Source: Amoebophrya sp. A120 | Lineage: Eukaryota > Protista > Dinoflagellata | Direction: 5' to 3' | Length of the DNA: 64,000 nt | NCBI GenBank assembly: GCA_905178155.1 | Contig: CAJINV010000004.1 | Span: 11,686,177 to 11,750,176, forward strand | Part shown: piece after piece, positions 1 through 48,665 of the stretch | How the letters are laid out: every line of letters starts with the position of its first letter | Numbering within the stretch: the stretch's first letter is position 1 | Position numbers and translations under genes: made by a program | The notes under the pieces: generated by a model | Seen by the model: the letters and a program-made list of their open reading frames with translations, nothing else | What the model was told of the DNA's origin: nothing | Databases searched by the model: none

Positions 1-172
1 CAACATGACAAATTTCTGAGCTTCTAGGTGTTGCCTATTCTGCATGACAAACTGCGTCTCCGCATGACAGAAAAATGCGGCTCTTGGGTAACGTGCATGA
101 CAGATTGGGGTCGTGCCAGACAAGCATGACAAACATGCACTCTTCCAGACCCAGACATTTTTACATTTGATA
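1..172. mobile_element. Introner family A, right part (truncated by window start)
   Basis: Ends in TIR ttccagacccagacatttttacatttgata; interior nearly identical to the copy at 38979-39230; interrupts the RING ORF. Confidence 0.9.
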
Positions 173-4788: not shown

Positions 4789-7700
4789 TCACCCACCGCC
4801 AACCGGCACGCACGTGAAGAGTTTTTTCTTGCCAAGGTTTTCTCCGTCCACCGTCCACTTTCTGTTCGTCCCCGCTTCCAAAATTTTTCCCCACGTGGCC
4901 AACAGTGTGTCCGGAACCTGATTCCCCACCCATCTCTTCCGGTCCCAAATTTTCACACATTTGAACTTCTCCTTGTCTCCGCAGTCGCAGTACGCTTGGT
5001 GCGCATACGGAACAGACTTCATCTCCCAGGATAAGGTTCTGTTCCTCGCAATCTCCTCCGGGTAAAGCGAAACCGCCATGCCCAAAGCGCGGACCGCGTG
5101 GTCGCCCCAGCGGTGCTTGATCTGGCCCTGGAGAGAGTCGACGTAGTGGAAAAATTGCTCGTAGGTATTCATCCTTTTAGGGGCAGTTACTCTTGCATCT
5201 TCATCCCCTTCTATATGCATTGCAAATATGTCTGGGTCTGGAAGCTTGCGAGGTTTGTCATGCAGGTGTTGCATGAGCCATGATGTCTGTGATGTACGCC
5301 AGAGCATCACAGACTTTCTGAGAGCGTCTTGATGCCTATCCCGCATGACAAATGCCCTGTCCACGTAGCAAAAACTGGAATGCTCTTGCTGCTCGTGCAT
5401 TACAGATTTTTTTCGAGTTCCGTGGTAGCATCACAAGTTGCATTCTTCCAGACTCAGACATATTTGCAGTGGATACCCGCCTACCCCTCGTCGACCCGTG
5501 ATGTACTCCACATCCACTATCTCACAGTCGTATGCTTTGCAAAAGTATCGTGCTCGTAGTAATTGCAGTTAGGCATTACAAATTTTTTTCTTGAAGTAAA
5601 TCCGCATGACATATTTTATTTCTCATGCTGGGAAAATTTGTAATGCATTTATACGAGTACGATACTTTTGCAGTTCATAAGTCGGTCATCACGACGCCGA
5701 GCGACCAGGTAAAGCCCAGCGGGTACTCCGGCAAGGTGATCAAGAGCTTTTGGTACAGGGGCTCGGTTGTACTACTTCTATCTGGTTGTAGTTGATGTTC
5801 CTGGAACGAGGGGGTAGAAGTACTACCACGGAAATTATCTTCTGCCGGAGGTTGAGGTTCACGTTCATCATCATCTGCACTACCAGTAGTACCTGCTTGG
5901 AGGTTCGAAGTGGACACAACGTGCTCCAAGACCATCGCTAACGCTTGCTCAGTCGCTTTCAGACGGTTTTCCGGAAGAAACGCGATGCTGCCGTCGTTCC
6001 ACGCCGCTAAGGTTTCGTTCATGGCCAGAGCGATATCGGCGGAGAGGAGGGGCGAAGACATAAAGGATGGTGTCGAACTTCTACCAACATCTTCTGCGGT
6101 TGGTCTCGAATTCGACTCTCCTGTTGATCCTTTATTACCAGCAACCGCCATCCCCGACATCCGGCTCGGCCACAGCAAGAATTTGTTTTGCATCCAAACC
6201 GGCTGCGTTTGCAGGAACATCTGTAACCACGCGTACAGATTCTGGCTGTTGGCCGGGGTCGACCGCGTAATGTACTTGTAGCCAAGGTGGACTGGTGCGG
6301 GGGCGGCTCCTGCTTTGGGGGTTCTTTCTCGACTACTATCGGATGAACCTTGATCCGATTCTACTGGAGGAAACACATCCGCTTCCACTTCCCTTGGAAA
6401 GTAGCTGTCGGTATCTAACCCCCAGGCGAACTTTATGGCGTTCTCAAACGTTACAGTCTCAACTGTTACATGAAATTTGTCATGCAAGAATGGCAAAAGT
6501 GAAAGGGAAAAGATTGGCCCTTTTTCATTACAGGTTTGGAGCAGATTATAATGGTATCTAGCGCGTCGAGAATTGATCGTGTGCACGTGCAGAGCGATAG
6601 TGTTTTTGCAGCATGACAAATCATGTAACAGTTGAGAATGTAACGTTTGAGAACCCCATAAACTTGAATCTTTTCTCCACCGCCGGGTGCTTGAAGAGCG
6701 GAAAGGCCCGGAACCGTGCCTGTTCCGCGTACCCGGCCTTCGAGTGGTGGGCAGCGGTTTTGTGCCCCTTCGCCGTGCTGCTCTCCCAATTGTGGACGCC
6801 GATGTGGTTGGGTTTCTCCATCAGATACAACCAGACCCGGTTCTGCTGTCGTGGTAGAATTTCTACGGTCAGCGTGTCGAATTCTGCTTCAGAAAACGAG
6901 TCGTCGTGAAAGAGCAAGACCGGGTAGTCGTGTTGCTTATTGAAGAACTCCCACAGATTGTGCAAAGCAAACCGGAGCTCGTCCAGGTGCGCAGAGTCGA
7001 CCGTGTAATGGACGAAGTTGCGTCGTTCGGTCTCTTCATGTTGAGGACCTGCATCGCTGTAGTAGTTCTTTTCGACGTGTTGATTCATCCCTTTACTATT
7101 TTTCGCCGTGCTAGTCTTCCTCGGGAGATCCAAAAACTCACAGACCGGCCCTCTGTAGGGGGGAAAACACTCGCAAACCAGGTCGGACGCGAAGTCGCGG
7201 CGAACACAGTGGCCGCGGTTGGAATTGAAAATGTTTGCGGAAACGCCAGGTTTTGGATTCCGGTACTGGTACTTGATACTGGTGGATATCATAAGGGCTT
7301 CTACAACACTCACCTTCGACGAAAGTCTACTTCCTCGTCGCGCCTCCTCGTCATTCATCTTGTTCGCAGGCAGAATCAGCGCTCTGAGGCCTTTCTTTTC
7401 GAAGAAAACGGCTCGTCTTTCCGCCCCTGTCATTCCTCCAAAGACCGGCTTCAAGTCTACACCAAGATAGTCGTCGAGAAAGAAAATTTTCTCCAAATGC
7501 AAGAAGTACTTACTGGTGGTCGTGCACCAAAACCCATCCAGCCATTTCTGGAAAACAGCAGCACTTCTAGAACCGCTAGTCTTGTCGTTCGAAAGGGTCA
7601 TGTGACCCTCAGCGGTTCCGAACCGGTCCTTGACCGTATCATGTAGGAAGACCGCGAAGATTTTGTCAACCTGGAGTAAAGTGTAGCCGAGCTTCCGTAA

Positions 7701-10700
7701 CTTCTCCACGGTTTTGTCCAAGCTGCATTGCGTGAGCACGATCATGGCATCGTGGAATGTCTTGTCCTTCTGGATCATTTTGCGAAATTTCTCGTCGCGA
7801 AGCATGTGCAGCGGCATGGGTTGCGCGAAGTGGGGAAAACTGGCTGGTTGTTGCTGGTGCATCTGCTCTCCTGCTGTTCTAGTAGTTGTCCAGCTTTCAT
7901 TTTCTGTTTCTGTTTCTGACAGGAAATTTGGTGGAATCATGGGATTGAAGGGCATGTAGAGAACCTTCGCGGTGGTGATCACGTCAGCCGTCAAGTAGTC
8001 CTTATCCCACGAAAAAAGTGTTACAGTTACACATTTGTACAAGTCACTTCAGCAACACAAATTTCTCTGCATGAGAATGTAATGCAGAAATCCTACGGGA
8101 AAACACCTATGAAACGAGGCTCTATGCGTATCCGGCATGACAGAGCTTGTCTGTCTTGCTTGGCCTGCAACACAATGTGTAACTGTATGTAACACTTTTT
8201 TCTCACGATAGTCCTCGATCAGGTCGCAGTGCGTGACGTGCGGACTCGCCACCATCAAATCCACGTCTTCACCCGGTTATCCTGTGCAAAAGTATCATAC
8301 CCGTAGTAATTGCAGTCATGCATTGCAAATCTTTTTGTTATTTAACGTAAATCAGCATTGCAAATTTTCTTTCTCATGCTGAGGAAATTTGTAATGCATT
8401 TATACGAGTACGATACTTTTGCACAGGATACCGGTGCGAGCAGGGGGTCCGTCGTGGCGGGCCACAGCATCACCTCGTCGAGTGATCCTTTTCCCACCCC
8501 GCGCGGCACCCAGTGCACATGCAAGTCCATCGCGAGATCGCTCGCGGCTGGGAGAAGGGGAAGCTGCTGCTGCTGCTGCTGTTGTCCTCCTGATTCGACA
8601 CCGGGTGAAGGAGCCCCGTCGTGGCCTTTTTGATCGACTTCTTCCTGTGTTTGCGCAAACAAATCGGCCTTGGCGTAGTAGCTTGGTTTCAAGGGGTCCT
8701 TTTTTAGCGCTAGGTAGTACACCCGGCCCTGACGAATTGTAGAAGTCATATGCTAACTTGCGTCTGGTTTTGATGGAAAGTGGTAGACGCTCGTCTCGAA
8801 AGTAACATCATACATACGATGTATCTTTTTCACAGAGACAGACGTGAAAACACATTTTGACCCGTACCGCGCGCATTAAAACGCAGTCAAGTTAGCATGG
8901 ACTTCGGCACCATAACCAAGTGTGCGGGAGGCAAACGTCCCAATCTATTCCATGGCTCTTGAAGAAAATAGCAGGGTTGCGGGAGGAGAGGCTGTCATCT
9001 GTTCCAACATCACGCGCAGTGGTGTCCTCTCGCTCTTGGCTACACAAATCCTGTCCGTAGTGTACTTCGCCTTTCAGCTTCCAGAAATTGTAGCTCAGGT
9101 TTTCCCCGAGGAGGTTCTCGGATTTTGCTTGTCTGCCTCCGCCCGTCTCTGCCTGCTGCAAGATTTCCATGGGGCCTGGCTGCGCTTGCACAAGTTCCCC
9201 GGATGCGTCATGGTAAAAATCTCGACCTATCCTGCTCGTTGAGCCACCAGAAGAACCAGTTCTGAAGCCTTCGTTCTTTACGGCGAGCGCTTCATCATAT
9301 ACCGCTTTTTCCCTCGCCCGCACGGCGCAAGCGAGGCAATTCGGCCGGTGAATACGCAAGTTCCGTTGCGTCGTGTGAATCATACCGGTCAACTCCGCGG
9401 TGGTGAGAAAGGCATCTGCTTTTGTCGCAGTATTTGTTCCTTCACGTTGTATTTCCGAGCCCTGTTGTTCGTCCTCTGTAGCTGCACTGAAAGCGGAAGT
9501 AGGCCCTTCCCCTCTCTCCAACATTCGCAAGTTCTTCCTGACTTCCTGTCTGGTCTTCTCAAACACCGCTTCCGGCGGCGCCGCGTTCCCCAGCCTGGCA
9601 GCGAGCTGGTGCAAGGAGAGACCCGGCTCCTGGTCCGCCAGGCCATTCGCTCTAGCTAGCTCCGCTTGCTGTAGCTCTGTTTGCAAAGCGACTTGCTTTT
9701 CGTATAGCCACAGCTCGTCCACGGGGTTTTGTTGTTGAATCATGTCACCCGCCGTCCCAACTCGGTTCAGCTCCAGTTCCGCTCCCCTCATTTGCTCGAG
9801 CAGGAAGTTGTAGAACTGCACGTGCCCGGTTTGCGTCCAGGGGGTCAGTCCGGGCACCCGGGCGGCTTCCCGGGCAAAACAGGTGAGCACCATCGCTGTT
9901 CCGACGTAGACGGAATAGAGCCTGGAAAGCTGTTGGTGCTGCGAGATGAGTTCTCGACCTGTTGTGCCGACATGGGGAATCGGAATTGTAGACTCCGAGA
10001 TACTGGAAGTTGTACTCCTCAACAGCAAAGCCGACTTCGTTGTCTCCATGGCCCACTTGGAGAAGCCGGAGAAGAGCAAAAGCTTCGACACCGTGTTGCG
10101 CCACTGGGAACCGATTTGGTGGTACGCCCCATCAAAAAGCTTACCGAACTGCTCGATAAAGTCTAGCAGCGCGGCGTATTCTTGCTTTTGCTTCAGCCCT
10201 GATCCCGCGGCAGCTGTCTCCGATGATGATGAATTATATGACGAAACTCTATCCATGGCATCCACGATGAGCTGCGCAGCCTTGCTGCCGATGATCGCCA
10301 GCAGTCGCTCCGAGACCTGGACGGCAAAAGTGGGGTCAGAAAACCCCAGCTGGGAATGGAGATTCACCGATTTCAGGATGAACTTCTCCGTCAGGGCAGT
10401 AGTATCTCCCTGCTGGTGGTATTCCTGGTCGTCACTGGTCCCATCGTCTTGCACTGCGGTCCCCGCCGCATTTACTTTCATGTTAGAAACTGACACAGAA
10501 TCTTCATCTTCATGCCCTCTGCCCTGCTCCGTGATTTTTCTCAGCTCCGTCTTCAGATCGTCGAAGATGACATTCGTTCCACTTGGGTCAGACGCGTCGT
10601 TCACGGGCGCAAATTGACGGTTTAGTACGGAAGTTGGGTTTAGGAGCAGGTTCGCACCCTCGTCCGGATGCTTCTCCAGAAAATCCAGTAACGGCGTCGC

Positions 10701-28600: not shown

Positions 28601-31199
28601 CCTCCGGCCAGCCTGCCCACTTTTTACTCGGCTATGGCAATGGGCGGGAAAACTAAAAAACCCCGGATACCTGCTGCCCGCTGGCCACGCGCGACACGCA
28701 GGAGAGACTTCGCCGCGCCTTTCCCAGCTGCGTGGCGGGGCAAGCCGAAAGGCGCCGACGCGTCCGCGCCTTGGGTAGCCAGCCAGCCAGAGGCAATGGC
28801 GGCCCGGGCGCCCGCGCCCATGCTACCGCCCAAGCGAATGCGCCAAAGCGGCGCGCAACCGGAAGGGCTGCGGCTCTTTTTTGGTTCAGAGCTCTTCTCA
28901 TCCGACCGCGGCCACCTGGACACGCAGCCAAAGAGCTAGCCCCGCCCTTTCGTCCGCCTCCTATTAGACAGAACCTGTTGCGGCGCTGGGCCGCTGCGGA
29001 GTTTCGTGCGAGTTGCTGCGGGCTCCTTCAGCTGCCCAGCCGACAGAGGGAGAACCCAAGCCCCTGCGTCTTCTGCCTTATCCGACTGGCCGCCGGCCGA
29101 AAGAAAACAGCCAAAATCGGCAAGGAAGCAGGCTAGAACGAGACGGCGACCAGGCAGTACGTAGGCAGACCTGCACCGAGCGGGGGCCGCAGTGCTTCTC
29201 GACGGGCCCTTGCGATATACTAGCAAACGCGCCCCGACTTTTGGCCCGAGCATGGATGGCCGTAGGTTTTCTTTCTTCCTTGTAGTGCTGTCGCTCTCTT
29301 ATTTCTTGAAGCTTGCCTAGCTAATATCATCTTCGTTTTCATGCATTGCTGACGCCTAGCTATTTACACCGCCTTGAGCCCTATTGTTCTATTTGTTTGC
29401 GTAAATTCCCGCGCCGTTGTGCCTCCACGGCGGCGCGAGTGAGGTATACTGATACTCATGACCATGATTTAGATTTTCAACCAGTGTGAAAAAATCACAT
29501 CCAATAAAAACCAATCAAACTAAAGTCCTCACCCGACAACTTCCCGACTAGTGCGAAGTCCACGTATCCACCCCATGGTGACGCGCCTCCTTCCGCCATT
29601 TTTTTGGACTTCTTTTCTGCCGCTTCGGACTTTTTCTCTGCGTCGGCGACGGCTTTTTTGGCCATTTTCACTTCTTCCTTCGCGGCCTTTATTTGGGTGG
29701 CCAGCTCGTCGTTGGCTCGCTGCGTCGCGTCGGCGTCGTCGTCCGCCGTTTTCTTCAGATCGGCATACTTCTTCTTCAGCTCCTCATACTTCTCTGCCAG
29801 CTGTGCTTGTTCGGGTGATGGTGAAGCTGTTGGGGAAGATGTTTAAGGGGGATGTGAACACGAGAATCACATAAAAACAGGTAAGTCTGGTGGTCTTTAT
29901 TTGTGCATCTTTTGCCTATGCGTATGCTATGTACCCAACTGAATAGTTTGCGAATAAAAATTGAAATGTGATACTCTATGCGTTTTCCAAAAGAGACCCT
30001 TTTCCAAAACTTTCATACCTGCTTCTCCCGCCTTCTTAGCTTTCTTCTCCGCATCTTTGACCTTTTTGTCTGCCTTCTGCTAGTATGCATTGCAACTATG
30101 TCTGAGTCTGGCAAGTCGTCATTCATGCCATTATGTGGATGGCCGGCATACGATACTGACACTCTCATCCACAGAAGTTCTTTATTTTGTACCGATGTGT
30201 TGCTGTTGTTTATGCTGACCATCCCTTGCAAGTTGCCTTTTTGCACAACAAGCAAGGAGTCGTGGTCTCGTTGGTACGCACCATGTATGGTTGTAGACGC
30301 TAGCTGCGCTGCGAAGCTCCAGACCAAGACATTTTTGCTATATGCATAGCTGTATCTCCTCCACGATTCCATTTTGCTGGGCCGATATCCACGAAGAAAA
30401 TTGCTTCACTGTGAATGTAAAGTGCGGAGGATAAAAGGCAGATTCGTCTCTTTTCTTTTGAATTGCAAGGAAATGCATCTCCTTCTCTTAGCGGGACAGA
30501 AGGTGCCCACGATGACAGATTTCCTTTCTTTGCCATGCGTTTTGCAGCCGTTCTACGGATCGTGCAAGGTCATTACAGTGAAATAATTTCTTCGTACGAT
30601 ATCCAAAACCTTCTCTATTTTTGCCTCGGCGTCAGCTGTATTGTCAAATTTTCAAGGGAGTTCTGGTTTTCCTCTTCCTCTCTAAAATAGCGCAGTTTTT
30701 TTTCTACAGTCACGCCTCTGCCGCTTTTCTGTTTTTTCATCGACATCGCTTACACTTTCATACTAAGTCAAAGAAATAAACGCACACGAATCTATTAAGC
30801 CATTAATCATACCTTTCTCTGCCTCCAATTTTCCCTCCAACTCCTTGATTTGCGTTTCAGCCTCTGTAAGCTTTTGTTGCGCCAGTTGCTGCAGCTGTCC
30901 CAGGTTAAATTCTGCGGAGCCCTTAGCCTCCTCACACGTTGCTGCTTCCTGTTTTAGTTGTGTATTTTTTGTCGTCATGCACATTTTCCAAACGGAGGGT
31001 CTTTTTTTACGTTTCTCATGCCGCATGATGCGCACGGCAAGCCAGTTGTCAGGCAAAAAGTCCTTACCTCAGTTTTCTTCGCCAGCTGGTCTTTCAAATC
31101 TGCGACTTCGCTGGCAACCGCATTCTTACCTCCCGCGGCCGCGTGTGCAACCGACGCGTAGTACGCGGTGAAGCAAGCGAACGTACGCTTGAGGACCAT
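25611..31199 (-). CDS. Multi-exon signal-peptide, coiled-coil, C-terminal transmembrane protein (unknown function)
   Basis: Starts MVLKRTFACFTAYYASVAHA; E/K/A-rich exons; in-frame GT-AG introns 29827-30018 and 27698-29532; four introners; hydrophobic C-terminal exons with CCGCC. Some junctions unresolved. Confidence 0.6.
26958..27222. mobile_element. Introner family A
   Basis: Family A TIRs (small duplication in right arm); TSD tgcgc. Confidence 0.9.
27280..27541. mobile_element. Introner family A
   Basis: Family A TIRs; TSD tcgtt; close relative of 44713-44974. Confidence 0.92.
27800..29260. repeat. GC-rich non-coding repeat inside a 1.8-kb intron, preceded by repeated TTGGCTCAA motifs
   Basis: GC-rich blocks with A-runs at 28150-29250, patchily similar to 62200-64000; TTGGCTCAA at 27809, 27893, 27915 and 28058. 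Confidence 0.5.
30084..30348. mobile_element. Introner family A, degenerate
   Basis: tatgcattgcaactatgtctgagtctgg ... ccagaccaagacatttttgctatatgcata; TSD gctag/gctgt; restores EEIQ/QKAD. Confidence 0.8.
30386..30601. mobile_element. Introner family E, degenerate
   Basis: tatccacgaagaaaattgcttcactg inverted relative to cagtgaaataatttcttcgtacgata; TSD gccga/tccaa; restores KVL/AQQNG. Confidence 0.7.
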
Positions 31200-34967: not shown

Positions 34968-37900
34968 TTATGCAAAGATGAAACTCCAAAGATTGTCCTC
35001 CCACGAAGGTTCCAAAACCTCCTCGGCCACCTGCTCCACAACTGTGCTTTTCCTCGCTTTATCCACCTCGGCTTTGCGTTCGTTTTCTTGTATCAAATAC
35101 GGATAGTACTGCGCTTCCAACGGCTGCATCCCCGTACTCCCGTCTACAATTCTTGCGGCGTTATAGTTGTTTTGCATTACTTGATGTCCTGACTGTGTTC
35201 TACTCCTTGCGGTTGAGGTAGCCTGCTGCGCCAGGTAGAAAAGGTGGTCGTCGGGGAGATCTGCAGCATCCGCTTCACCATCATCAACCTTATTTCTCCG
35301 TTCCGCCGATGGCCCAGTAGTTGTTCTTGCGAACACAAGCTCCTCAAATTCCCCTGCAGCCCCCGGGTTGCCAAGAATTAAAGCGGACTCTTTACTGGCC
35401 CCTCCTTCCGACGACGATGGTGGTTCCGGGTAGTACAAAGCTGCCCGATCTACTCCTCCTGCGGGTTTCTCGTGCACGTTTCCTCCCATCTGCGAGCTGT
35501 GCCGCAGGTGCGGGTGAATGGAGTTGTAGTTCAGTTTTCCGTGTGCGTTCGGCGGTCCGCGCAGGTAGTGGTGGTCGCCGATGAAGTTGGGGATTTCGGC
35601 GCCCTCGAGTTTGGACGGGCGGTACGGGTTGTTGCCCATCGCGTAATCCTTCAGCGTCCCCGTGCGGCCACACGCGCTGCATTGGTGATCGATGCTCGGA
35701 GGACCGCGAATGGTGTTGTGGAGAGCCGCATTGTAGCCGAGATTTTGCGCGTTGGGCGGAAGAGGGGCCCCGCCGACGGAAGGAGCCGCTTTTTGCTGCT
35801 GCGCTTGGGTCTGGAATTTGTTTGATGCACTTGCTTTGGGAGGTACGATTTTTGTGTAAGTGAGCTGCAGCGGACGAATCAATAAATTATCCGCAGCTGG
35901 AAGTAGAACAAGAAGAAACAAACTGAAAGAAAAAACTCCAAGCACAAACATCTATCGTCATCGTTGAAAAGGATATCTGTAGTACTTACCCCCTTGTGAA
36001 AGCCGAGCACATTCTCCGCATATCCCGCGGGCAGCGGTAATTGCGGATACCCCGGAAGGCCCTTGACGATCCGCTTCCTTCCGTCGGGGAAAACCAAACG
36101 ATAGGTTGGCACGGGGACTCTGCTATGGATTGCAAACATGTCTGGGTCTGGAAACTTGTAATGCTAAAAGTGAATGATAGACGCGCGGCAATACGCAGCT
36201 ATGCATGACAAATTTTGTGATTGTGGCTGCCATATCTTATGTATTCCGCATGGCAAACTGCCTTTTCGCATGACAGTTAAGAGGGCCCTTGCGTGCCTAT
36301 GCAACGCAGATTCTCGAGTCATGCCAGACAAGCATGACAAACTTGCATTCTTCCAGACCCAGACATTTTTGCATTTGATATCTGCGGACTACGGGCATGT
36401 CGACGAAATCGACGCTCTATCCTGTGCAAAAGTATCGTATTCGTATTGCAATCATGCATTTTTTTGAAGGTAAATCCGCATTACAAATTTTTTTCTCATG
36501 CTGAGGAAATAATTTGTAATGCATTTATACGAGTACGATACTTTTGCAGTTCATACGCTCGGCGCCTCGACGATGTTGCTCACCTCTTGCGTTTCCGTAG
36601 TCTTCAGCACCGCGTTGCCCTGATAGGTTTTTTGTTTGTCCTTCTTTCACGTACTGTATTTCCCGGAAATAATGGCAGAAGGATGAACTAAGTATGCAGA
36701 TGCACCCCCACAACTGTGGATGTTTTTCTTTTGTAACAGGTTGAATAAAAACCAGCAAATAAATCAAAATCCGCCACCGTCTACAACTGTACGTATGCGT
36801 CCACGCTTCCCGCGGCCTTCAGCGCCGCTGCCCCGGTTCTGCTCGCGGCCAAGCCCTGCAATTCTGCAAGTTCCTTCTGCTCGGCAGCGTCCGCTTCCGT
36901 GATGGTTTTCAGATCGGACAGGTCCGCCTTGCGCCCGGTCGCGGCGTCCATGATGTACACCGGGACCCGTTGCTCCACTTTTTTCTTCACTCCCCGGTTC
37001 TTCACGACCGTTTCCTCGACGATTTTGTCCACGATCACCTCCCTATGCAGTCCAAAAGCATCGCATTTGACGCACGGTACTAAACTTGCGTGTACAGTAT
37101 TAAAATGACACATCTGCCTTGTTACCTGAATCTGCATGACACGTTTCCTTTTTCTTCCTGAGAAAATTTGGCATGCGAATTATGCTAGTCCGACTACGAT
37201 CAAACTTTTGCAATGCATACTCCCGGTACTCCGTTCGGTCCTCGTAAAAGACCTTCTCGTCGTAGATCACTTTCGGGATCTCAATGTACCGATCCTCGTA
37301 GATGATCTTCGGCACCTCCACCCGTTTTTCCTCCACCATCACGGTCGTGGGCCCCTCCACTTCCTTCGTCACGTACTTCACGTATCCAGAAAAAAAAGTA
37401 AGTGTAACTTTCTTTGAGAAACAGCATCACAAATTTGCTTTACATGACAGAGAAAACCTGTCATGCGTGGCTTGTAAGGGAAAACACACACGAAAAGAGG
37501 ACTTCATGGCTGTCTGGCATGACAGGTGTAACTCTGTTGCATGTTCTGCATCACAAATTTACACTTACACAGTTTTTTTCTTGCATATCACGACGGGAAC
37601 CTCCACAAACTTCTCCACCACCTCAATCACCGGCTTCTCCACCACCCGCTCCTCGAGCACCGGCACCCGTTTGACCTTGGTGCGCTCCTTGACCACCACC
37701 TGCGGCACCTCCATCACCTTCTCGACCACCCGGTAGTACTATGCATTGCAAATATGCCTGGGTCTGGAAAAGTGCCAAGTTTGTCATGCTAAACAGAAGT
37801 GCCAAGCTTGTCATGCATATTTCCATGCCCATGAAGTCTGTGATGCATGCCCTAGCATCACAGATGCTGCGAGAGCTTTCTCATGCTTAAACCGCATGAG

Positions 37901-39502
37901 AAATGCCCTCTTTGCGTGGCAAAAACTGGACCTCTTTTGCCGTTCATGCAATACAGGTTTTTTGCAGAGTCCAAAGGTAGGTAGCATCACAAGTTATAAC
38001 TCTTCCCGGCGACCCAGCCATATTTGCAGTTGATAAGGGCTTGATCCCGACGATGAGCTTTTTTTGCTTCTCCGTGATCGTTATCAACTGTAAAAATGTC
38101 TGGGTCAGGAAGATTTCTACATTTGTCATGCATACTATCCATGACCCAGGATGTCTGTGATGCATGCCGTAGCATCACAGATTTTTAGAGCGCTTTTTCA
38201 TGCCTATGTATTCCGCATGACAGATGCCATCTCCGCGGAGCACAAAATCTACTCCTCTTGCTGGTCATGCAATACCAATCTTTTTCGAATCCAGAGACAG
38301 CATCACAAGTTTAGACTCTTCCAGACCCAGACATTTTTGCATTTGATAATCGTCTGCAGCTTCACGTTCGTCGTCTCCACCTCGCGCTCTTCCTTCCGCA
38401 GCGTCTCCTCGACCAGCCGCTCCTCCACGAACCGGCCCTCCAGCACGTAGTTTTGCACCACCCGCTCGCCCTGCGCGAGTTTGATGCCGTCCTCGGCATC
38501 GTGGTGCGGGCCCAGGTTGTTTGCCGCGTTCAATAGCGCTTCCCGGCCGTGGTGGTCCAGGTGCTCCTCCTCGCTGTCCTCGTTGTATTTGCGCTCCGGC
38601 ACGTTGTGCGCCCGCAGAAAGTGGTCGTCCCGGGCGAGGTCGTACGCGTGGGCGTCGTATGTACTGCAAAAATGTCTGGGTCTGGAAGGTGGTAACTTGT
38701 CATGGTAAATCTGAAGCATGCAAAACTCTGTGTTGCATGAGTGCCAAAAACTGTCCACTTTCGCTAGGTTGGGAGGGAGTTTCTCCTGCAGGATAGGCAT
38801 GGCAGAGACCTCGCAGAGTCCGTCATGCTACGTCCCGCATTCCAGACCTCGCGGGTCATGGAAAATCTGCATGACAAGTTTACACTCTTCCAGACCCAGA
38901 CATTTTTGCATTTGATACGTCGAGCACCCGCTCGATGTCCCGCGGGTCATCGTCGTCAATTTGCACGCCGGCTTGGTTTATCAAATGTAAAAGTGTCTGG
39001 GTCTGGAAACTTGTGATACTGGGTGGCGTCTCATGATGAGGCTACAAATGCTGGCTCAGCATGACAAGTTTCTGAGCTCCTAGGTGTTGCCTATTCTGCA
39101 TGATAAACTGCGCTTCTGCATCACAGAAAAACGGAGCTCTTGGGTAACGTGCGTGACAGATTTAAGAGTCATGCCAGACAAGCATGACAAACATGAATTC
39201 TTCCAGACCCAGACATTTTTACAGTTGATATGGCTGAGCACGCCGGACAGCAGCGGCGCGGGTCCGTCGGTCTCCGCGGGCAGGAAGAGAAAAGAACTAT
39301 TGTTCGCGGGTTGTTGATGACTTCTCGTCGGGGACCGCGAGGAGCTTGAAGATGTTGCACCAGGCTCGTCGTTGTCCTGGTGACGGTTGGTCGTGTTGTA
39401 CTCCGCATCAATGATCTGCTCGACAGTTTCCTGCGGCGGCTGCTCTTTTTTCTTCCGGTCGTGCAGCGTCTGCAGCGTCGGCTCGCCCTTCGTGTTGATC
39501 AT
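34968..39502 (-). CDS. Alveolin / inner membrane complex (IMCp-repeat) protein with 8 introners and at least 2 GT-AG introns
   Basis: Spliced product has V/E/K/P repeats: VVEKVMEVPQVVVKE, VVEKPVIEVVEKFVEVPVVKYVTKEVE, VEVPKIIYEDRYIEIPKVIY. Confidence 0.8.
36124..36380. mobile_element. Introner family A
   Basis: Family A TIRs; TSD tctgc. Confidence 0.9.
36418..36555. mobile_element. Introner family B
   Basis: Family B TIRs; TSD cgctc. Confidence 0.9.
37044..37219. mobile_element. Introner, degenerate family B-like
   Basis: tatgcagtccaaaagcatcg ... cgatcaaacttttgcaatgcata; TSD ctccc; restores EYRE/VIVDK. Confidence 0.8.
37383..37587. mobile_element. Introner family D-like
   Basis: tatccagaaaaaaaagtaagtgtaa inverted relative to ttacacttacacagtttttttcttgcata; TSD tcacg. 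Confidence 0.85.
37740..38035. mobile_element. Introner family A, diverged
   Basis: Family A TIRs with mismatches; TSD agtac/agggc; restores IKP/YRVVEK. Confidence 0.85.
38082..38348. mobile_element. Introner family A
   Basis: Family A TIRs; TSD atcgt. Confidence 0.92.
38658..38917. mobile_element. Introner family A
   Basis: Family A TIRs; TSD cgtcg. Confidence 0.92.
38979..39230. mobile_element. Introner family A
   Basis: Family A TIRs; TSD tggtt/tggct. Confidence 0.92.
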
Positions 39503-40275: not shown

Positions 40276-43018
40276 TCAGAGCCATGAGGAGTTCGCGACC
40301 CGTTTCGACTTTCCGGCGTTATCAACATCCGCCTGCTGCTCGGCCATCCTTTTCAGACCCGCGCGACAGAGCGCTTTCACATCCATACTGGGATCAACCC
40401 GCAGCTGGCTCACCAAGGCTTTTTTCCCTTCCTCACACGGTACGCGGGTCAGCGCCTCCGCCATCAGCAGCCTCGTGTACTCCGCTTTCTCTTTCCGCAT
40501 CGCCTGCCCGAGTCGCGAAGCGAGGGCGTTCGCTTCGCTCAGCGTCGTCGTTGAGGTGGCAGTGGCACGAGTTGTTCCGCTTGCCGCTGCTGCCACTGCT
40601 GGTGGGCAAGCACTGGAGCTGCCGCCGACTTCGCTCCCGGCGCCAGCGCCTGTAGACGTCGCATGATGAGTCATCTGGTCCTCCTTGTCTCCCTCCTGCA
40701 GCAATTGTGTCGTCAGCATGGCGTTGCGCAGACGTCGCTCCTCCTCCAAACTCTTGCAGGCGTGCAGGTCGTGAATCAGTTGGGATATCGCCAGCGTTCG
40801 GATCCACTCGTCGTGATCCTCCAGTAGCTCCCGCACTCGCGCTTTCGCCTCCGAGTCGAAGTTCGAGATGTCCCCGAGGCCGCAGCAGGCGAAGGCCCGT
40901 AAGTGGGGAAATTGCTCGTTGTAACTCCATATGAAATGCAAAAATGTCTGGGTGTCGGTGTGGAAAAGTGTAAACTTGTCATGCAGATTTTCCATGACCC
41001 GTGGGCATGGCCATGAGGTCTGGTTCTGGAATGCGGGACTTAGCATGACAGACTCTCCGAGGTCTTTGCCATGCCTATGCTGCATGAGAAACTCCCTTCC
41101 AACTTGGTCAAAAGTGGACCGCTTTTTCGCTCTCATGCAAGACATATTTTTGCATGCTTCAGATTTACCATGACAAGTTGCCGCCTTCCAGACCGAGACA
41201 CTTTTGCATTTGATACTCCATTCTTGCAGTTTCCACGACAGCTTCTTCCGGAAGTGGCTCGACCCCTGGTGCCACAGTTGCTCGACCGACTTCAGGACCG
41301 GAGGCGGTCGTTTTGCCACTGCGGTGGAAGAACCAGAGCTTCTTCGGTTTCTTGCTGGCGCAGGGGGTGAAGCGGATGACGCAACAAGGTCAAGTTGGTT
41401 CCCCGTAGAAGCAGGCGGGTTCGGTGCGCTTACCGAAGTTGCTTCTGGAGCTGCTAGGATGGTTCTCGCACCCCCTTGTTGATGTCCCGCGGTCGCGCTT
41501 GGTGTTGTTGTTCCCCATGTCCTCGCGCCAACATTTGTCCTCTCGCCCGGGAGGCCCTCGGGATGAAGCACGTCCAGGCTCCGGTAGAACTGGTTCTCCT
41601 GCTCCTCATCTTCTGATTGGTCTTGCTCACCCCCATGCCATAGTGAAGACGCGTCGACAAACAGAGCCTTGGCGAGATCTTTTGCGTAGCGAGCGTTTGG
41701 ATTTTGTTCACAATAAGTAGTACTTCCTGATGACGATGTTGCTCTACTTTGCCCTCCCCCACCTCGCGGAGCCAAAGTCGTCGCATCCTTGAACAAATCG
41801 GTGTCCAGATTTCTCTCCGACCGGTTGGCTTGGCTGCAGATGCTTACCAGGCGGAGGTGCCGCCACTGCTGGAACAGCAGTTCCTCGTATTCGCGGCGAA
41901 TATCATCTGCAAAAGTATCGCACTCGTAGTAATTGCAATCACGCATTACAAATCTTTTGCTTAAGGTAAATCCGCGTCACAAATTTGATTTCTCATTCTG
42001 AGGAAATTTGTAATGCATTTATCCGAGTACGATACTTTTGCAATGCATAGCGAAATGGCCGGAACAGCTCAGCATCTCCCTTGCACACCAGTTCCCACTG
42101 CTTCAGCTCCTTCCCGAAACCTCTTTCTAGCAAGATGTCCAGCGCCGCACTGCGGATGGCTTGGTGGAGGTCAGAGTGAGAAAGTTGAGGGTTCTGCTGT
42201 TTTTCAACATTGATTGCGTCTTCGTCATCATTCGGTGGTCGCTCAACATGCCCTTCCTGACGTTGAGCAGCACTGCTGACTGCGTCGTTTATTTGTTCAT
42301 CCTCTACTTGCACTTGGTCGTGCAAAAAGGGCACTTTCCCTCTGTCAGCAGCGAGACCAGGCGGTGCATCGCCCGGTGTTCTTGGAAGTTCTTTTTCCAG
42401 TACAGTGTCAGGAGTGCCGCTAGGACCGAGAAAACCCTCTCGGCGTGGCCGAGCAATTGGTGTAGCAATGCCCATGTCAGCGTCGTGCGGAAGATGATCG
42501 ACGTTGTGTATCTGTATGTGCTGTCCTCCAGCGCTTGTTTGGGGTTCATCTTCCGTAACTACGCTGCAATACGGAGGCGTGGCCTGCTGGTCGGAGGTTC
42601 CAATTCTAGCTGGCGATCTACTTCTCTTTTTCCGACTACGGCCCGAATAAACCGGCGTGAACAAGGGGCGCCAACACGAGGGTGTTGATCTATGTTGCAT
42701 CGACGACGAGCAGCCAGGCGTTTCATGCTGTCCTCTACTTCGTAGTTTGACGGGTTCCGTGGAAACAGAGACTGCGCTCCTTGTCGAGGCGGAGCAGTCG
42801 TGTTGGTATGTTTGATCTTGCGGATGTTCATCCCCTTCTGGTGAAGCGGTTTCTGAGCTCGAGGTAGTTGTAGACCAATCTGACCCAGCGTGCAGCTTCC
42901 GCGTCAGCCCGGTAGACGCAAAGCGCAGGCGAGCACCTGACACATCGAAGTAGAAAAAGGAAGATATTAGGGCACATACGGAAACGAGACCACGACGTGT
43001 GGGATAATTGTTGGCCAT
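40276..43018 (-). CDS. Hypothetical protein with N-terminal signal peptide (two introners); 3' end may extend to an exon near 39765
   Basis: GLVSVCALISSFFYFDVSGARL leader; ORFs join as ELFRPF/RREYEELL and KLQEWS/YNEQF. Confidence 0.6.
40930..41215. mobile_element. Introner family A, in frame and stop-free on the coding strand
   Basis: Family A TIRs; TSD ctcca; ORF 40276-41946 reads through it. Confidence 0.9.
41901..42049. mobile_element. Introner family B
   Basis: Family B TIRs; TSD gcgaa. Confidence 0.9.
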
Positions 43019-43388: not shown

Positions 43389-46300
43389 TTATTCTTTGTG
43401 CTGTGTAAGTAGAGCTGTTCCACCACTCGAACGCTGTGCTAGTGACGGCGCGAGAAACGAAGTTGCCCCGGCACCAAATGCTACGCCTGGTGTAGTTTGC
43501 GGCACCGGCGCACCAAAGCCAAGTGGCGTAGTAGAAGCGAATTGTGGAAAGGACGACGACGCAGAACTCGCTGTCCGCAGTGGCTGATGGAACTGCGAAA
43601 TAGCGGGGACGTCGCCGGACGAACAAGAAGCGAAACCCGGCCTAGCACGACCGCTGGGAATTATCATGGTCGTCCTTGAACTTGAAGAAGATGAGGCACC
43701 ACTCCCTCCTCCAAAATGGCCCCACGACGTTGGCGGCGCAAACTGTGACGTCGTGGAGGGCTTTCCCGCGGTCGTGCCGGCTGTTTTCACAGAAGTTCCT
43801 GTCGTAATCCTGGTCGTACTAGTACTTCCACCAAAAGCTGCTGCAGAAGAACCACTTGATGAAGTTGCTGATGCTCCTGTCTTCCTTGCTTTTTGCGCCT
43901 GTAGTTTCTCCTTCTTCTCCTCCGCTAGAACCTCATCGTCCCATTTGAAAAATTCGCAGCTGGTGTACGTATATCAAATGCCAATATTTCTGGGGCTGGA
44001 TGATCACGATTCCGAGATTTGTCATGCAGTTTTTCCAAGCTCCGCCAAGTCTGTAATGCCGGGCCTAGCATCACAGGTTCTGCAGCCCCTTGGTGATGGT
44101 GATGCCTATTCTGCATGAGAAATGACTCCCCGGTATGGCTAGAAATGGGCACCTTTTGCAAGTCATGGAACACAGATTTTCGTATGATCCGCAACACGCA
44201 TCACAAGTTCGTATCCTTCCAGACCCAGACATTTTTGCAGTTGATAACGTAGCACTGCTCGTCGTGGAGGTCTGCAGCTTCGTCTTAGACGGGTCGAAGT
44301 TGTTAGTTCCCGGTTCCTTTTTGCCTTTGCCCTTCCCCTATCAAGTGTAAAAGTGTCTGGGTCTGGAAGAATGCAACTTGTCATGCTAAATCTGAACAAG
44401 GCAAAAATCTGTGTTGCATGATTACCAAAAGTCGTCCAGTTTTGACCAAGTCGGGAGGGAGTTTCTCATGCAGGATAGGCATGAGAGAGACAGAGATCGC
44501 GCAGAATCTGTCATGCTAGGTCCTGCATTCCAGACCTCATGGGTCATGGAAAAGCTGCATGACAAGTCGCGCATTCTTCCAGACCCAGACATTTTTACTG
44601 TTGATATCCCCCCGCCCGCCCGACCGCTCCCAGTCCTCGGATTGGTGCAGCTCCAGAAGTACCGCCCGAGATTCTGGTTCGCTTTGAAAACCGGCTTCAG
44701 CATCGCCCGCTTTATCAAATGTAAAAATGTCTGGGTCTGGAAGAATGCAACTTGTGGTGCTGAATTTGGATTCCAAAAAAATCTGTATTGCATGAGCAGC
44801 AAAGGGAATGTAATTTTTGGTGCGCGGAGAGGGCATTTGTCATGCGGAATAGGCATCGCGAAGCCCTCAAAAAATCTGTGATGCTAGGGCGTGCATCACA
44901 GACATTGCGGCCCATGCAAAACATGCATGACAAGTCTCAGAATCTTCCAGACCCAGACATTTTTACATTTGATACGCTTCCCGCAGTGGCAATTCGGCGC
45001 GCGGTTGCTCACGTCGTAATTGCGCTCGCGGAACGTGAAGGAAAGCCGGCCCTCCCCGCTGATCGGGTGCTCGTGCAGTTTGTTGTCGACCGGAACTTCG
45101 TGGCGCCAGAACTCCTGGAAACCCTCCCACATGACGAGCAGAGAATTGTGGGGAAGGCGGATCGCATAGGACGTCACGCGGCCCTTCTGTGTGCTTGAGG
45201 GTGTCTCTTTGTTCGCTGTTGGTGTCGCTATGTTGCTCTTTGATGTGTTTTTCGGCAGCTTTCGCTGATCCTTGTTCTTATCGTCGACAGGTGTGGTCTC
45301 AATCTCAACGTAATTCACAGGCTTCATTTTGAATTGCCGACTTGCGCCCAGCGTGAAGGCCGCCACCAGAGCCCAGGGCCCGATGCTCTGCACGGGGTCG
45401 GAGTGCGCGCCCAGGAAATCGGACTTCGCCGTGTAGTAGTTGCAAACGCAAAAATCCGGTTTCCACATCGGCGCACCGGGACCGGGAATGTACTGTCCAA
45501 AGTGTTTGATGGTGGAGAGATTCGCACCGGCAGCCGCACGCTGGAGACGGAGGAGGCGGAGACAGGTCGTGCTGGTGGACGATGAAGCTTGGTGCTCTTC
45601 TCGTCTATTGCCATTGGTCGTTGGTTCATTTGGATTTTTCCCCGGCTTCTCGACAGAAGTATTAATCGTTTTTGGTACAACTACTGCTGTCCTCTCCCCA
45701 AGACTCTTCCAAGCCTCGTCTCGCGGTCTTTTCTCGTTCCCGACAAGAAATTTCTCACACCCGATCGCCACGGCGCCCGAGCGCAACTGTTGCACGCGAT
45801 TCGTGATCACGTTCCGCACGTGCGCCACACGGTCGCCAAAATCGGTGTTTTTCCAATTTTTCGGTAGGTGGTCGAAGGAAAATCCGGTTTGCAGCCGGTG
45901 AGACACGATCTCCTTGTCGTACAGCCACCGCTTGGATTGGCGCCAGGTCACTTCCAGGAAGCGTGTAAGGAGGTCGTCGGCAAAGTCCTTCGCGAAAATG
46001 TTCTCCATCAGGTTCTATCAAATGCAAATATGTCTGGGTCTGGAAGAATGCAAGTTTGTCATGCTGCTTTTCCATGACCCATGAGGTCTGGAATGCCGGA
46101 GCTAGCATGACAGATTCTGCGAGAACTTTCTAATGCCTATCCTGCATGAGAAACTCCCTCCAAACTTGGTCGAAAGTGGACTGCTTTTGGCACTCATGCA
46201 ACACAGATTTCTGCATGATTCAGATTTAGCATGACAAGTTGCATTCTTCCAGACCCAGACATTTTTACAGTTGATAGGTTCACCGGGCAGTGCTTCTCCA

Positions 46301-48665
46301 GTTCGGCCACGGTGATTTTCTCCGTGATGGTTTTGTTCGAGTCGAAAAGCTATCCTGTGCAAAAGTATCGTATTCGTATAAATGCAAGGCTTGCAATCTC
46401 TCACTCTCTTAAGGCAAATCAGCATTACACATTTTATTTGTCATGCTTAACAGACTGCGCAGCTAAAGCCCGGGGGGGTGCGGGGTCCGAGGGGTGCACT
46501 AGGCACTGCCCGGAACACCCGAACATGCCCCGCGACCGGCACAGGACCAGCAACACAACTAGTAATCGTCGATCACAGTTTGTCGATCACGACGTAGCTG
46601 AGAAGCCGTCCATACGCCTGGCGCCCCAAGCCCAACCCAACCCCCGAGGAAACGCCTCGACCACAGGAGGACCAAAACAAGTGAGCTTACGGCACAATGA
46701 ACTGGGAGCGCCTGTCTATGGACCGGATGAGGAAGGCCCCGGAAGACCCATTTTATTTGTCATGCTGAGAAAATTTGTAATGCATTTATACGAGTACGAT
46801 ACTTTTGCAGTTCATAAAAGCACAACCGTCCGAAAAATGTCGGGCTCGTCTGCGACTGTTCTTCTTGGGGGCTCGGAGCAGGACGGAATTGCTTTTCTTG
46901 CGCTGGGACGAGCTTCGATGTGCGGTGTGAACTGGTTTAATATTGCAGGTCGTGTACTAGTAGTACTCGCAGACTTATTGTTCTCATCAGTTGCAGCTGC
47001 GCCTGTGCCTGTACGACACGCGCTCGTGCTTACAGCAGGCTCGTTGTTTTCTTCCTTCCGGAAGAAGCCTTCTGACGCCTTCTTCGTCTGAATAGGCGCA
47101 GCAGCAGCTCCGAGCACAGTTGCTACATCCCCTTGATGGTTTTCTCCAGTTCGGCCACGGCAGTGCTTCTCCAGTTCGGCCACGGTGATTTTCTCCGTGA
47201 TGGTTTTGTTAGAATCGATATCAAATGCAAAAATGTCTGGGTCTGGAAGAATGCAACTTGTGATGCTGCGTTTCGATGACTAAAAAATTTGTGTTGCATG
47301 AGCAGCAAACAGAGTCTAATTTTTGCTACGCGGAGGGGGCATTTGTCATGCGGAATGGGCATCAAGAATCCCTCAAAAAACCTGTGATGCTAGGGCATGC
47401 ATTACAGGCATCATTGGTCATGAGAAATATGCATGACAAATCTTGCATTCTTCCAGACCCAGACATTTTTACAATCCATAATCGAAAAGCACAACTGTCC
47501 GAAAAATGTCGGGCTCGTCTGCGACTGTTCTTCTTGGGGGCTCGGAGGACGGAACTGCTTTCGCGCTGGGGCGAGTTTCGATGTGTTGCGGTGTAAATTG
47601 GTTTGTTGCAGCAGGTCGTGTACTAGCACTAGCAGATTTATTGTTTTCATCAGTTGCAGCTGCGCCTGTACGACATTCGCTCGTGCCTACAGCAGGTCGT
47701 TGTTTCACTGCAGGCCACTCGTTGTTTGCTTCCTTCCGGATGAAGCCTTCTGGCGCTTTCTTCGTCTGAACAGGGGCAGCAGCAGCTCCGAGCGCAGTTG
47801 CTACATCCCCCTGAAGCACTTTCGTCTTCACAGCGTCGTGCTTCTTTTCATTTTTCCAGGTTTCCGCGCGCGCCTGCAGTAGCCCGAGAACAGTTTTTTC
47901 TGGTTTTCTTGGGGCGACATTGGTGGTCCGTCCATTGGGATTCGTGGCCCTTGCCGCTGCCTGCATGAGCCTCTCCGCGGTTGCCAACGCATTTTTGCTG
48001 CTTGTTGGATTGGATGAAGTTGCGGCTGCATCAGCATTGGTGGTCGCTGCAAATTCAAATTGATTATGGGCTTCCTCTGGGAGAAGGAGAACTCTACTAC
48101 TTCGAGCCGGAAGACCCGGGGTCTTGGAAGTGCGGTCTTCTTGCAAAATTGCAACTGGCTGTGGATGCGCATGCGCGTCATGATCGAGGGAATAACAATC
48201 CAGCGGCGCGATATCGCTCTTCCGAAGGAGCGAAGGGGGCGGAGAGGACGATGACGAGAGCTCGATAAGACTGATATCGTGTTCGTTTTTCTTCCTATTT
48301 TTGTTTTTGCTGCCAACATCCTCCTGCGACCACTGAGCTCCTGCTTCAGAAGATTGCGTTCGAAACTGCTGGCGTCCCCTGTTTTCAGGCGGTTCCGGAG
48401 CCGCGGGTGGACGAGCTGGCGGGTCATAATTGGGCTGTGAGGACGAGGAGACAAAGATAACGCTCTCGTCGAGGCTACTGTCGAGGTGCACAACTTCTAC
48501 AGCGGGCTTTTCTGCTTTTTCATGTTCGTTCGCGGCGTCCGCGACCGGGTCTCCGTCCTCCTTAATGTTACTCTGTGCAGGTGTACAAGCTCGGTCTGCT
48601 TCTGAGTCAGAAAATTCCTGAGTCGAGATGCGTCGCCGCTTCAGGTCCGGTGTTGAGGAAGGCAT
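43389..48665 (-). CDS. AlkB-family (ALKBH2/3-like) 2OG-Fe(II) dioxygenase with C-terminal GRF zinc finger; six introners
   Basis: CVCNYY...LGAHSD (HxD), LPHNSLLVM...WRHEV, RLSFTFR; GRF finger PNCHCGK/RAML...NLGRYFWSC...CEFFKW appears only after introner removal. Confidence 0.88.
43972..44246. mobile_element. Introner family A
   Basis: Family A TIRs; TSD acgta. Confidence 0.9.
44339..44606. mobile_element. Introner family A
   Basis: Family A TIRs; TSD tcccc; interior nearly identical to 20662-20929. Confidence 0.92.
44713..44974. mobile_element. Introner family A
   Basis: Family A TIRs; TSD cgctt; splits the GRF finger. Confidence 0.92.
46016..46276. mobile_element. Introner family A (opposite orientation to 20662/44339)
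   Basis: Family A TIRs; TSD ggttc. Confidence 0.92.
46351..46816. mobile_element. Introner family B enlarged by a nested insertion
   Basis: Family B TIRs; TSD aaagc; 466 bp versus 138-153 bp for intact siblings. Confidence 0.9.
46448..46748. mobile_element. 301-bp insertion with 18-bp TSD (probable SINE or truncated non-LTR retroelement)
   Basis: cattttatttgtcatgct repeated at 46430-46447 and 46749-46766; GC-richer than the host element. Confidence 0.7.
47219..47480. mobile_element. Introner family A
   Basis: Family A TIRs; TSD atcga. Confidence 0.92.

What the first reader, a model, noticed from the sequence alone, without database searches (positions are those of the whole stretch)
1..47480. 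Transposon-like introns that must be removed without fixed splice dinucleotides: TAT...ATA introners with random 5-bp TSDs
Seen: 27 complete elements plus 1 partial (138-296 bp; one 466 bp with a nested insert), all inside CDS and none found intergenic. Each has TIRs, and 21 of 27 have a perfect 5-bp TSD with no consensus (agtcg, aactt, gtcct, ccggt, cttcg, tgcgc, tcgtt, tctgc, cgctc, ctccc, tcacg, atcgt, cgtcg, ctcca, gcgaa, acgta, tcccc, cgctt, ggttc, aaagc, atcga). At the junctions translated, deleting the element plus one TSD rebuilds conserved domains (GT15, GRF finger, IMC repeats), yet most junctions cannot be GT/GC-AG or AT-AC in any register. Established: non-canonical inverted/direct-repeat introners are reported in Amoebophrya and, to my knowledge, their excision mechanism is unresolved. 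Inference: a TIR-hairpin-defined splicing system, or alternatively precise DNA-level excision analogous to ciliate IES removal.
Basis: partly seen in the sequence, partly recalled or inferred. Interest (0 to 1): 0.9.

Follow-up and report, generated by a model that had tools for sequence, protein, structure and literature searches.

The report
Hairpin transposon introns cut by ruler
These are the already published hairpin-shaped jumping elements that interrupt genes of the marine parasite Amoebophrya; transcript assemblies lack each element plus one copy of its 5-base target repeat, and the junctions that can be resolved put the cuts 1 base before and 4 bases after the hairpin, likely a fixed rule that replaces the usual GT-AG splice signals.

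Summary
In detail: 28 complete TAT...ATA elements in 1-47480 (22 with a perfect 5-bp target duplication; 0 such in 20 shuffles), one partial, and two more near 60 kb. Two proteins encoded here are 100% identical to NCBI Amoebophrya sp. A120 proteins, and these are the introners described by Farhat et al. 2021, so the elements are already known. Removal is at the RNA level: 8 of 8 elements in 4601-24600 are skipped as element + 5 nt in RNA-type contigs that also lack GT-AG introns, while a DNA-type run keeps the elements it spans. DNA excision is disfavoured. What this follow-up adds: where the two repeat copies differ, all 8 junctions fit one register, and the two that bound it on both sides give exactly that one: the intron begins 1 nt before TAT and ends 4 nt after ATA (N-TAT...ATA-NNNN). 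Its +2 base is then the element's first T, which deviates once at transcript 5' ends against 8 times at 3' ends (p=0.04). Likely an altered spliceosome using the hairpin as a ruler; the catalyst is untested. The scan noted a similar element in Prorocentrum earlier.

The parts
1..172 (-). partial element (only its TAT terminus at 172 and inner part lie in the window)
   Evidence: 28/28 match to a family terminus
5214..5475 (-). element, 262 bp, flanks GCGGG/TAGAA (1 of 5 alike); intron shown to be 5210-5476, GT...GA
   Evidence: joint 5209>5477, no ambiguity, runs X3, X4, X6
5531..5679 (-). element, 149 bp, perfect TSD
   Evidence: skip 154
6434..6660 (-). element, 227 bp, perfect TSD
   Evidence: skip 232
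8003..8210 (-). element, 208 bp, perfect TSD
   Evidence: skip 213
8278..8430 (-). element, 153 bp, perfect TSD
   Evidence: skip 158
20358..20612 (-). element, 255 bp, TSD 4/5; registers 2-5 allowed (GT-AG possible at 3)
   Evidence: (skip 260 in 4 of 4 runs)
20662..20929 (-). element, 268 bp, perfect TSD
   Evidence: skip 273 in 4 of 4 runs
23166..23415 (-). degenerate element, 250 bp, TSD 4/5, terminal base changed at the transcript 3' end
   Evidence: skip 255 in 3 of 4 runs
   Evidence: removal not tested
26958..27222 (-). element, 265 bp, perfect TSD
   Evidence: removal not tested
27280..27541 (-). element, 262 bp, perfect TSD
   Evidence: removal not tested
30084..30348 (-). element, 265 bp, TSD 3/5; registers 0-1 would put a stop in frame
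   Evidence: unbroken in DNA-type contig
36124..36380 (-). element, 257 bp, perfect TSD
   Evidence: absent from P0001
36418..36555 (-). element, 138 bp, perfect TSD
37044..37219 (-). element, 176 bp, perfect TSD
   Evidence: unbroken in DNA-type contig
37383..37587 (-). element, 205 bp, perfect TSD
37740..38035 (-). element, 296 bp, TSD 3/5; registers 3-5 fit P0001 and the A25 orthologue
38082..38348 (-). element, 267 bp, perfect TSD
38658..38917 (-). element, 260 bp, perfect TSD
38979..39230 (-). element, 252 bp, TSD 4/5; registers 2-5 fit P0001
40930..41215 (-). element, 286 bp, perfect TSD
   Evidence: X3 contig skips 291
41901..42049 (-). element, 149 bp, perfect TSD
   Evidence: X3 contig skips 154
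43972..44246 (-). element, 275 bp, perfect TSD
   Evidence: contig length arithmetic, checked
44339..44606 (-). element, 268 bp, perfect TSD
44713..44974 (-). element, 262 bp, perfect TSD
46016..46276 (-). element, 261 bp, perfect TSD
   Evidence: frame open after removal
46351..46816 (-). element, 466 bp with a nested insert of about 300 bp, perfect TSD; the paralogous site at 47481 is empty
47219..47480 (-). element, 262 bp, perfect TSD; the paralogous site at 46341 is empty
60119..60338 (-). degenerate element, 220 bp, flanks GCAAC/CAACG; only register 4 fits the deposited protein (intron 60115-60339)
60448..60592 (-). degenerate element, 145 bp, TSD 4/5; registers 4-5 fit P0003

Best explanation
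Short hairpin-forming elements sit in exons of Amoebophrya A120 genes with a 5-bp target duplication and are missing, together with one repeat copy, from transcript assemblies; they are likely non-autonomous DNA transposons that are spliced out of pre-mRNA at a likely fixed distance from the hairpin (1 nt before TAT, 4 nt after ATA), probably by an altered spliceosome. Steps: (1) Insertion makes a 5-bp duplication of a sequence-unspecific site, in either orientation (shown by empty paralogous sites and by orientation counts; the transposase is not identified). (2) The inverted ends pair in the RNA (predicted). (3) The RNA is cut so that the upstream exon keeps TSD bases 1-4 and the downstream exon keeps base 5, which restores the pre-insertion message exactly (net loss of element + 5 shown; the register fixed at two junctions and compatible at six more). 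(4) The intron therefore reads N-TAT(C/G)...ATA-NNNN: the element supplies +2 to +5 of a donor-like site (compare the host's own GTATTT, GTAAAA, GTACAG, GTAAGT donors), +1 and the last four bases come from the host. I infer that a U1-less U2-type spliceosome reads the +2 U and lets the hairpin set the 3' cut in place of AG. Because both ends are alike, either orientation gives a spliceable intron, which would explain how such elements spread through coding DNA at little cost.
For: RNA level: 8 of 8 elements in 4601-24600 skipped as element + 5 nt, one joint each, in contigs that also skip GT-AG introns (the four runs are one sample); 5 more; DNA-type run X1 reads through junctions at even depth. 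Register: 5214 joint has no ambiguity and gives register 4 in 3 runs; 60119 fits deposited protein P0003 only at register 4, predicted before the look-up; 60448 needs 4-5, 37740 needs 3-5, 20358, 38979 and 30084 need 2-5, 23166 needs 1-5. +2 T: first base of the element deviates from T once at transcript 5' ends and 8 times at 3' ends (n=353 and n=409 by two strand-calling methods, p=0.039); all 9 predominant A120 splice motifs in Farhat's Table S4 have T at +2. TSD by insertion: reciprocal empty sites in a tandem duplication; 345 of 461 elements in fetched loci and window have a perfect 5-bp TSD. Both orientations: 34/29 and 30/28 for two families. Hairpin: all 29 introns folded pair their ends, z from -1.2 to -19.4, against +1.6 and +0.9 for two GT-AG introns (12 shuffles each); z -5.4 with 200 shuffles for 5214. 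Spliceosome present with U1 undetected (PMC7789003).
Against: Only two junctions bound the register on both sides, one from contigs of a single sample and one from a deposited gene model that may rest on the same RNA. Farhat et al. describe splice sites as variable relative to the hairpin. 20358 can also be read as a plain GT-AG intron at register 3. The +2 T asymmetry is modest (one test of several, p rises to 0.06-0.25 under stricter strand calls; one 5' exception in each method). No enrichment of AG at the 3' end or of G at +1 was seen, and no branch signal was identified, so nothing here shows a lariat or a spliceosome. In Euglena a similar hairpin code is thought to use non-spliceosomal factors. 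Strand calls in the fetched loci come from my own codon model (26 of 27 window elements called correctly). One family is skewed in orientation (17 to 4).
Confidence: 0.6

Rival explanations
1. Same RNA-level removal and same ruler, but by a non-spliceosomal nuclease and ligase that recognise the hairpin base (as proposed for Euglena nonconventional introns), releasing a circle or linear RNA.
For: No AG and no G at +1 needed; geometry resembles the Euglena code N3-CDG...CHG-N5-6; U1 not detected in A120.
Against: The 5'-biased conservation of T at +2 and the donor-like N-TAT(C/G) start fit a spliceosomal 5' site; both intron kinds share transcripts and nearly all spliceosome proteins are present.
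Confidence: 0.28
2. RNA-level removal with a loose cut anywhere within the direct repeat; the apparent fixed register is chance.
For: Published text calls the borders variable; 22 of 28 junctions are uninformative; only two two-sided cases.
Against: Both two-sided cases give register 4, six one-sided cases include it, and one search lists no second joint at any element.
Confidence: 0.07
3. Precise DNA-level excision in some life stage, like ciliate IES removal.
For: TIR + TSD anatomy; only one DNA-type run was laid and contigs drop rare variants.
Against: Contigs lacking the elements also lack GT-AG introns; X1 contigs run unbroken across 30084-30348 and 37044-37219 and across single junctions of other elements at depth 41-46; the constraint on the first T follows the transcript's direction.
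Confidence: 0.03
4. Reverse-transcriptase template switching across hairpins flanked by direct repeats ('falsitrons'); the elements are really retained.
For: Known artefact (PMC8240250, abstract); all RNA evidence here is cDNA-derived contigs.
Against: 5214 has no repeat at its joint yet is removed exactly and in frame in 3 runs; frames are only open after removal; the protein across junctions is conserved in strain A25.
Confidence: 0.02

Closest known systems
Introner elements / non-canonical introns of Amoebophrya sp. A120 (Farhat et al. 2021, PMC7789003; Gozashti et al. 2025, PMC12130899)
   Same: Same organism by protein identity; inverted repeats starting TAT + 7 nt + AAA, direct repeats of 3-5 nt at the borders, RNA-seq support, mean length near 240 nt.
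   Different: Nothing in the elements. The paper leaves the border position unknown or variable; here it is resolved to -1/+4 at the informative junctions, and the TSD is shown by empty paralogous sites.
Euglena nonconventional introns (Nomura et al. 2025, PMC12501133)
   Same: MITE-like origin, terminal pairing, fixed spacers between hairpin and cuts, longer 3' than 5' overhang, no GT-AG.
   Different: Spacers 3 and 5-6 nt with CDG/CHG core and a purine after the intron, against 1 and 4 nt with TAT/ATA here; unrelated lineage; genetically tested there, untested here.
Introners of Aureococcus, Micromonas, Symbiodinium, Polarella; Fritillaria non-canonical introns (PMC9860276, PMC11282704, passages)
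   Same: Non-autonomous TIR transposons whose TSD supplies part of the splice sites.
   Different: Those keep GY-AG or a lineage-specific dinucleotide pair and so need particular target sequences; these accept any target.
IS3EU/GingerRoot DNA transposons (PMC10045372, passages)
   Same: TA..TA termini.
   Different: 6-bp TSD there, 5-bp here; no transposase found for these elements.

Membership tests
Amoebophrya A120 introner elements | Host is strain A120 | tested here: met
   two window exons 100% identical to NCBI proteins named Amoebophrya sp. A120
Amoebophrya A120 introner elements | Terminal inverted repeat beginning TAT, about 7 variable nt, then AAA | tested here: met
Amoebophrya A120 introner elements | Direct repeat of 3-5 nt over the exon-intron borders | tested here: met
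   22 of 28 perfect 5-bp
Amoebophrya A120 introner elements | Repeated in the genome | tested here: met
   families within the window; 26 of 30 queried window elements have full-length relatives in the fetched loci
Amoebophrya A120 introner elements | Removed from transcripts with non-GT-AG borders | tested here: met
MITE (non-autonomous TIR DNA transposon) | TIR, TSD made on insertion, no coding capacity, many copies | tested here: met
MITE (non-autonomous TIR DNA transposon) | Cognate autonomous element with transposase | tested here: inconclusive
   no long element with matching ends and TSD holding more than other elements among 140 loci; whole genome not held
IS3EU/GingerRoot | TA..TA termini | tested here: met
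IS3EU/GingerRoot | 6-bp TSD | tested here: not met
   345 of 461 have a 5-bp abutting repeat, 0 have 6 (the seed library was built from 5-bp cases)
U2-type spliceosomal intron | GT/GC-AG ends | tested here: not met
   0 of 29 window introns at register 4 (listing); 11 of 303 canonical of any kind at register 4 in loci and window
U2-type spliceosomal intron | U at intron +2 | tested here: met
   all 29 window introns at register 4; 5'/3' asymmetry 1 vs 8
U2-type spliceosomal intron | Lariat with branch adenosine; dependence on snRNPs | not testable with these tools
   no raw reads of this strain were served
Euglena-type nonconventional intron | N3-CDG...CHG-N5-6 signature with purine after | tested here: not met
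   signature here is N1-TAT...ATA-N4
Ciliate IES | Removed from DNA in a somatic genome | tested here: not met
   retained in DNA-type run X1 where contigs span them; other life stages not seen
Self-splicing group I/II intron or other Rfam RNA | Match to a covariance model | tested here: not met
   0 matches at gathering score in the window

The most novel reading that the evidence does not exclude
Amoebophrya A120 has a second splicing code, 5'-N|TAT...hairpin...ATA-NNNN-3', in which a spliceosome has dropped G+1 and the terminal AG, keeps only U+2 and measures both cuts from a transposon's terminal hairpin, so that any insertion of the element, in either orientation and at any sequence, is born as a perfect intron.
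Probability: 0.5. Interest if true: 0.8.

Novelty: already known. Interest (0 to 1): 0.5.

Why it matters
The elements are published, but how about 65% of this parasite's introns are spliced without GT-AG is an open question. A fixed -1/+4 register with an invariant +2 U turns 'no splicing signature' into a rule that can be tested on existing RNA-seq (thousands of mismatched TSDs), gives exact ends to look for lariats or circles, and points at which spliceosome contacts (G+1 and AG pairing, U1) should have changed. If true it is a second, independent case, beside Euglena, of hairpin-ruler splicing that makes transposon insertions harmless, and it would correct intron borders in the A120 annotation.

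Tried and rejected
1) My first idea, that TSD mismatches cluster at positions 1-3 (seen in 5 of 6 window cases), failed on the larger set: single mismatches 17/11/8/11/12 over positions 1-5. 2) Inferring the exonic TSD copy from mutation polarity or stop codons in the fetched loci was uninformative. 3) A branch-adenosine in the terminal ATA: no 3'-specific conservation (position 3 deviates 7-8 times at 5' ends, 2-4 times at 3' ends, not significant). 4) A protein search from locus L029, meant to give two more register tests, found nothing at E<=0.001 among 2502 candidates. The run search listed no holder on record as RNA; X3-X6 are taken as RNA because they skip GT-AG introns. 6) In one search the DNA-type run swamped the joint table, so 12 of the 17 elements in that stretch had no RNA joint displayed. 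7) No match in viral contigs; none in Rfam. 8) Local hopping as the cause of clustering: close neighbours are of one family in 9 of 105 pairs against 12 of 165 distant pairs. 9) 27844-28069 has weak inverted ends but no TSD and was left out. 10) Roy et al. 2023 (Curr Biol) is not held and was not seen; no whole genome is held for this window.

Full report
Observation. A scan for TA(T/C)...(A/G)TA pairs with inverted ends and flanking repeats, refined with a library of termini, gives 28 complete elements between 1 and 47480, a partial one ending at 172, and one more at 60119-60338; a looser scan added 60448-60592. 22 of the 28 have a perfect 5-bp target duplication; 20 shuffled windows gave none. 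Host genes lie on the minus strand; positions below are in transcript sense. 'Register r' means that the upstream exon keeps the first r bases of the repeat.

Identity. Two exons are 100% identical to NCBI proteins named Amoebophrya sp. A120 (P0001; P0003). Farhat et al. 2021 (PMC7789003; I read the abstract, sections 10, 11, 12, 16 and 25, passages, and supplement legends and Table S4; figures were not visible) describe A120 introners with inverted repeats starting TAT, direct repeats of 3-5 nt (5 bp in Fig. S19), 29,850 copies, RNA-seq support and no U1 snRNA detected, and leave the border position unknown. The elements are therefore already known.

They are insertions with a true TSD. A tandem duplication at 46290-47830 carries one element in each copy, five bases apart, and each copy is the empty site for the other, with the repeat present once. 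With the window they gave 461 candidate elements, 345 with a perfect 5-bp repeat and none with 6 (the seed library came from 5-bp cases, and a few long candidates are false pairs). TSD base composition is close to that of the flanks. Two large families lie in both orientations relative to the inferred transcript (34/29 and 30/28), one is skewed 17/4. No autonomous partner was found. TA..TA ends recall IS3EU/GingerRoot, but those make 6-bp TSDs (PMC10045372, passages); Gozashti et al. 2025 report an A120 TIR family with integrase-like frames (PMC12130899, passages and a supplement search).

Removal is at the RNA level. In contigs of runs X3-X6 (one sample; RNA is the tool's guess, borne out by two skipped GT-AG introns), 8 of 8 elements in 4601-24600 are skipped as element + 5 nt, one joint each. 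X3 contigs skip 40930 (291) and 41901 (154), and their length accounts exactly for 43972, 44339 and 44713. Protein P0001 lacks 8 more. That is 21 of 28; 7 are untested. Run X1 (kind not on record; even depth 41-46, runs through introns and spacers) holds 30084 and 37044 within unbroken contigs; contigs drop rare variants, and only this one DNA-type run was laid. Template switching cannot explain 5214, whose joint has no repeated bases.

The cut register. At 5214 the flanks are GCGGG and TAGAA; the joint 5209>5477 in three runs is unambiguous and gives register 4: the intron starts one base before TAT and ends four bases after ATA. I then predicted the junction peptide for 60119 (flanks GCAAC/CAACG): of the registers tried for removal of element + 2, + 5 or + 8, only + 5 at register 4 matches P0003; the gene models were built from transcripts aligned without a splice-site model, and may rest on the same RNA as X3-X6. 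Six one-sided cases agree: 60448 (4-5), 37740 (3-5, also KPY in the A25 orthologue), 20358, 38979 (2-5), 23166 (1-5) and 30084 (2-5, read from the sequence: lower registers put TAG in frame).

What the register implies. The intron reads N-TAT(C/G)...ATA-NNNN, so +2 is the element's first T. If that T matters for splicing and not only for transposition, it should be better kept at the transcript's 5' end than at the equivalent 3' end. With termini found without using their first three bases, it deviates once at 5' ends and 8 times at 3' ends (n=353; n=409 with neighbour-weighted strands; p=0.039 each; 0 vs 5, p=0.06, and 0 vs 3, p=0.25, under stricter calls); position 2 deviates 1 vs 5 (not significant). 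Farhat's Table S4 lists nine predominant A120 motifs, all with T at +2, and nine for A25, all TT. There is no excess of AG at the 3' end or G at +1; 32 of 303 elements could be canonical in any register. All 29 window introns folded pair their two ends. Shown: net removal, register at two junctions. Inferred: general rule, role of +2 U, hairpin as ruler, spliceosome as catalyst.

Comparison. The nearest working analogue is the Euglena code N3-CDG...CHG-N5-6, whose spacer lengths were tested genetically and whose factors are unknown (PMC12501133, abstract and discussion). Other introners keep GY-AG (PMC9860276 and PMC11282704, passages). Tunicates show that a spliceosome can be retuned to non-GT/AG introns (PMC13326754, search listing and four passages). 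PMC12005148 (passages) added nothing on mechanism. [quoted passage not shown] 2023 was not held.

Verdict. Real, RNA-spliced, already published as a class. The added rule is supported by few two-sided junctions but is cheap to test and makes the open mechanism question concrete. Interest 0.5.

Noticed in passing
window and loci L001-L140: Elements cluster: 89 of 314 neighbouring pairs leave an exon under 75 nt, against a mean of 44 (maximum 60 in 500 runs) for uniform placement; 101 of 328 exons are 25-74 nt and only 4 are under 25 nt; neighbours are mostly of different families. May reflect insertion beside an existing element (linker DNA) and a minimum exon size near 30 nt.
   Followed up: partly
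window and loci L001-L140: At register 4 the introns are phase 0 in 103 of 240 cases (p=0.005; 65 of 156, p=0.08 under stricter calls). Unexplained for exact-removal insertions.
   Followed up: partly
window and loci L001-L140: Family lengths fall near 151, 210, 252-263, 280 and 308-322 bp.
   Followed up: no
window 1-64000: No element was found between genes although long minus-strand frames cover only about 63% of the window; only 17 of 409 elements have AT-rich flanks. Suggests targeting of coding or GC-rich DNA.
   Followed up: partly
window 46430-46760: The insert of about 300 bp nested in the 466-bp element is flanked by an 18-bp direct repeat, so it is a different mobile element; no copy in the window or fetched loci.
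   Followed up: partly
window 46290-47830: Intragenic tandem duplication whose two copies each took an independent insertion five bases apart at paralogous sites: a possible hot spot.
   Followed up: yes
window 46192-46276: RNA run X10, which has next to no reads on the window's exons, has about 200 reads matching this element end at 90-95% with a different flank: the family occurs, and is present in RNA, in another strain or species.
   Followed up: no
window 17668-17829, 20017-20219, 35811-35989, 36620-36792: The GT-AG introns end in A/C-rich tracts with no pyrimidine run before AG, so the ordinary 3' site also looks unusual.
   Followed up: no
window 28100-29400 and 62200-64000: GC-rich stretches with related wording, the second with an internal duplication; raised depth in X1 at 29001-30268. 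Probably another repeat.
   Followed up: no
window 56690-56820 and 57207-57351: Stretches rich in the elements' GCATGACA-type words but without clean TAT/ATA ends; possibly old elements.
   Followed up: no
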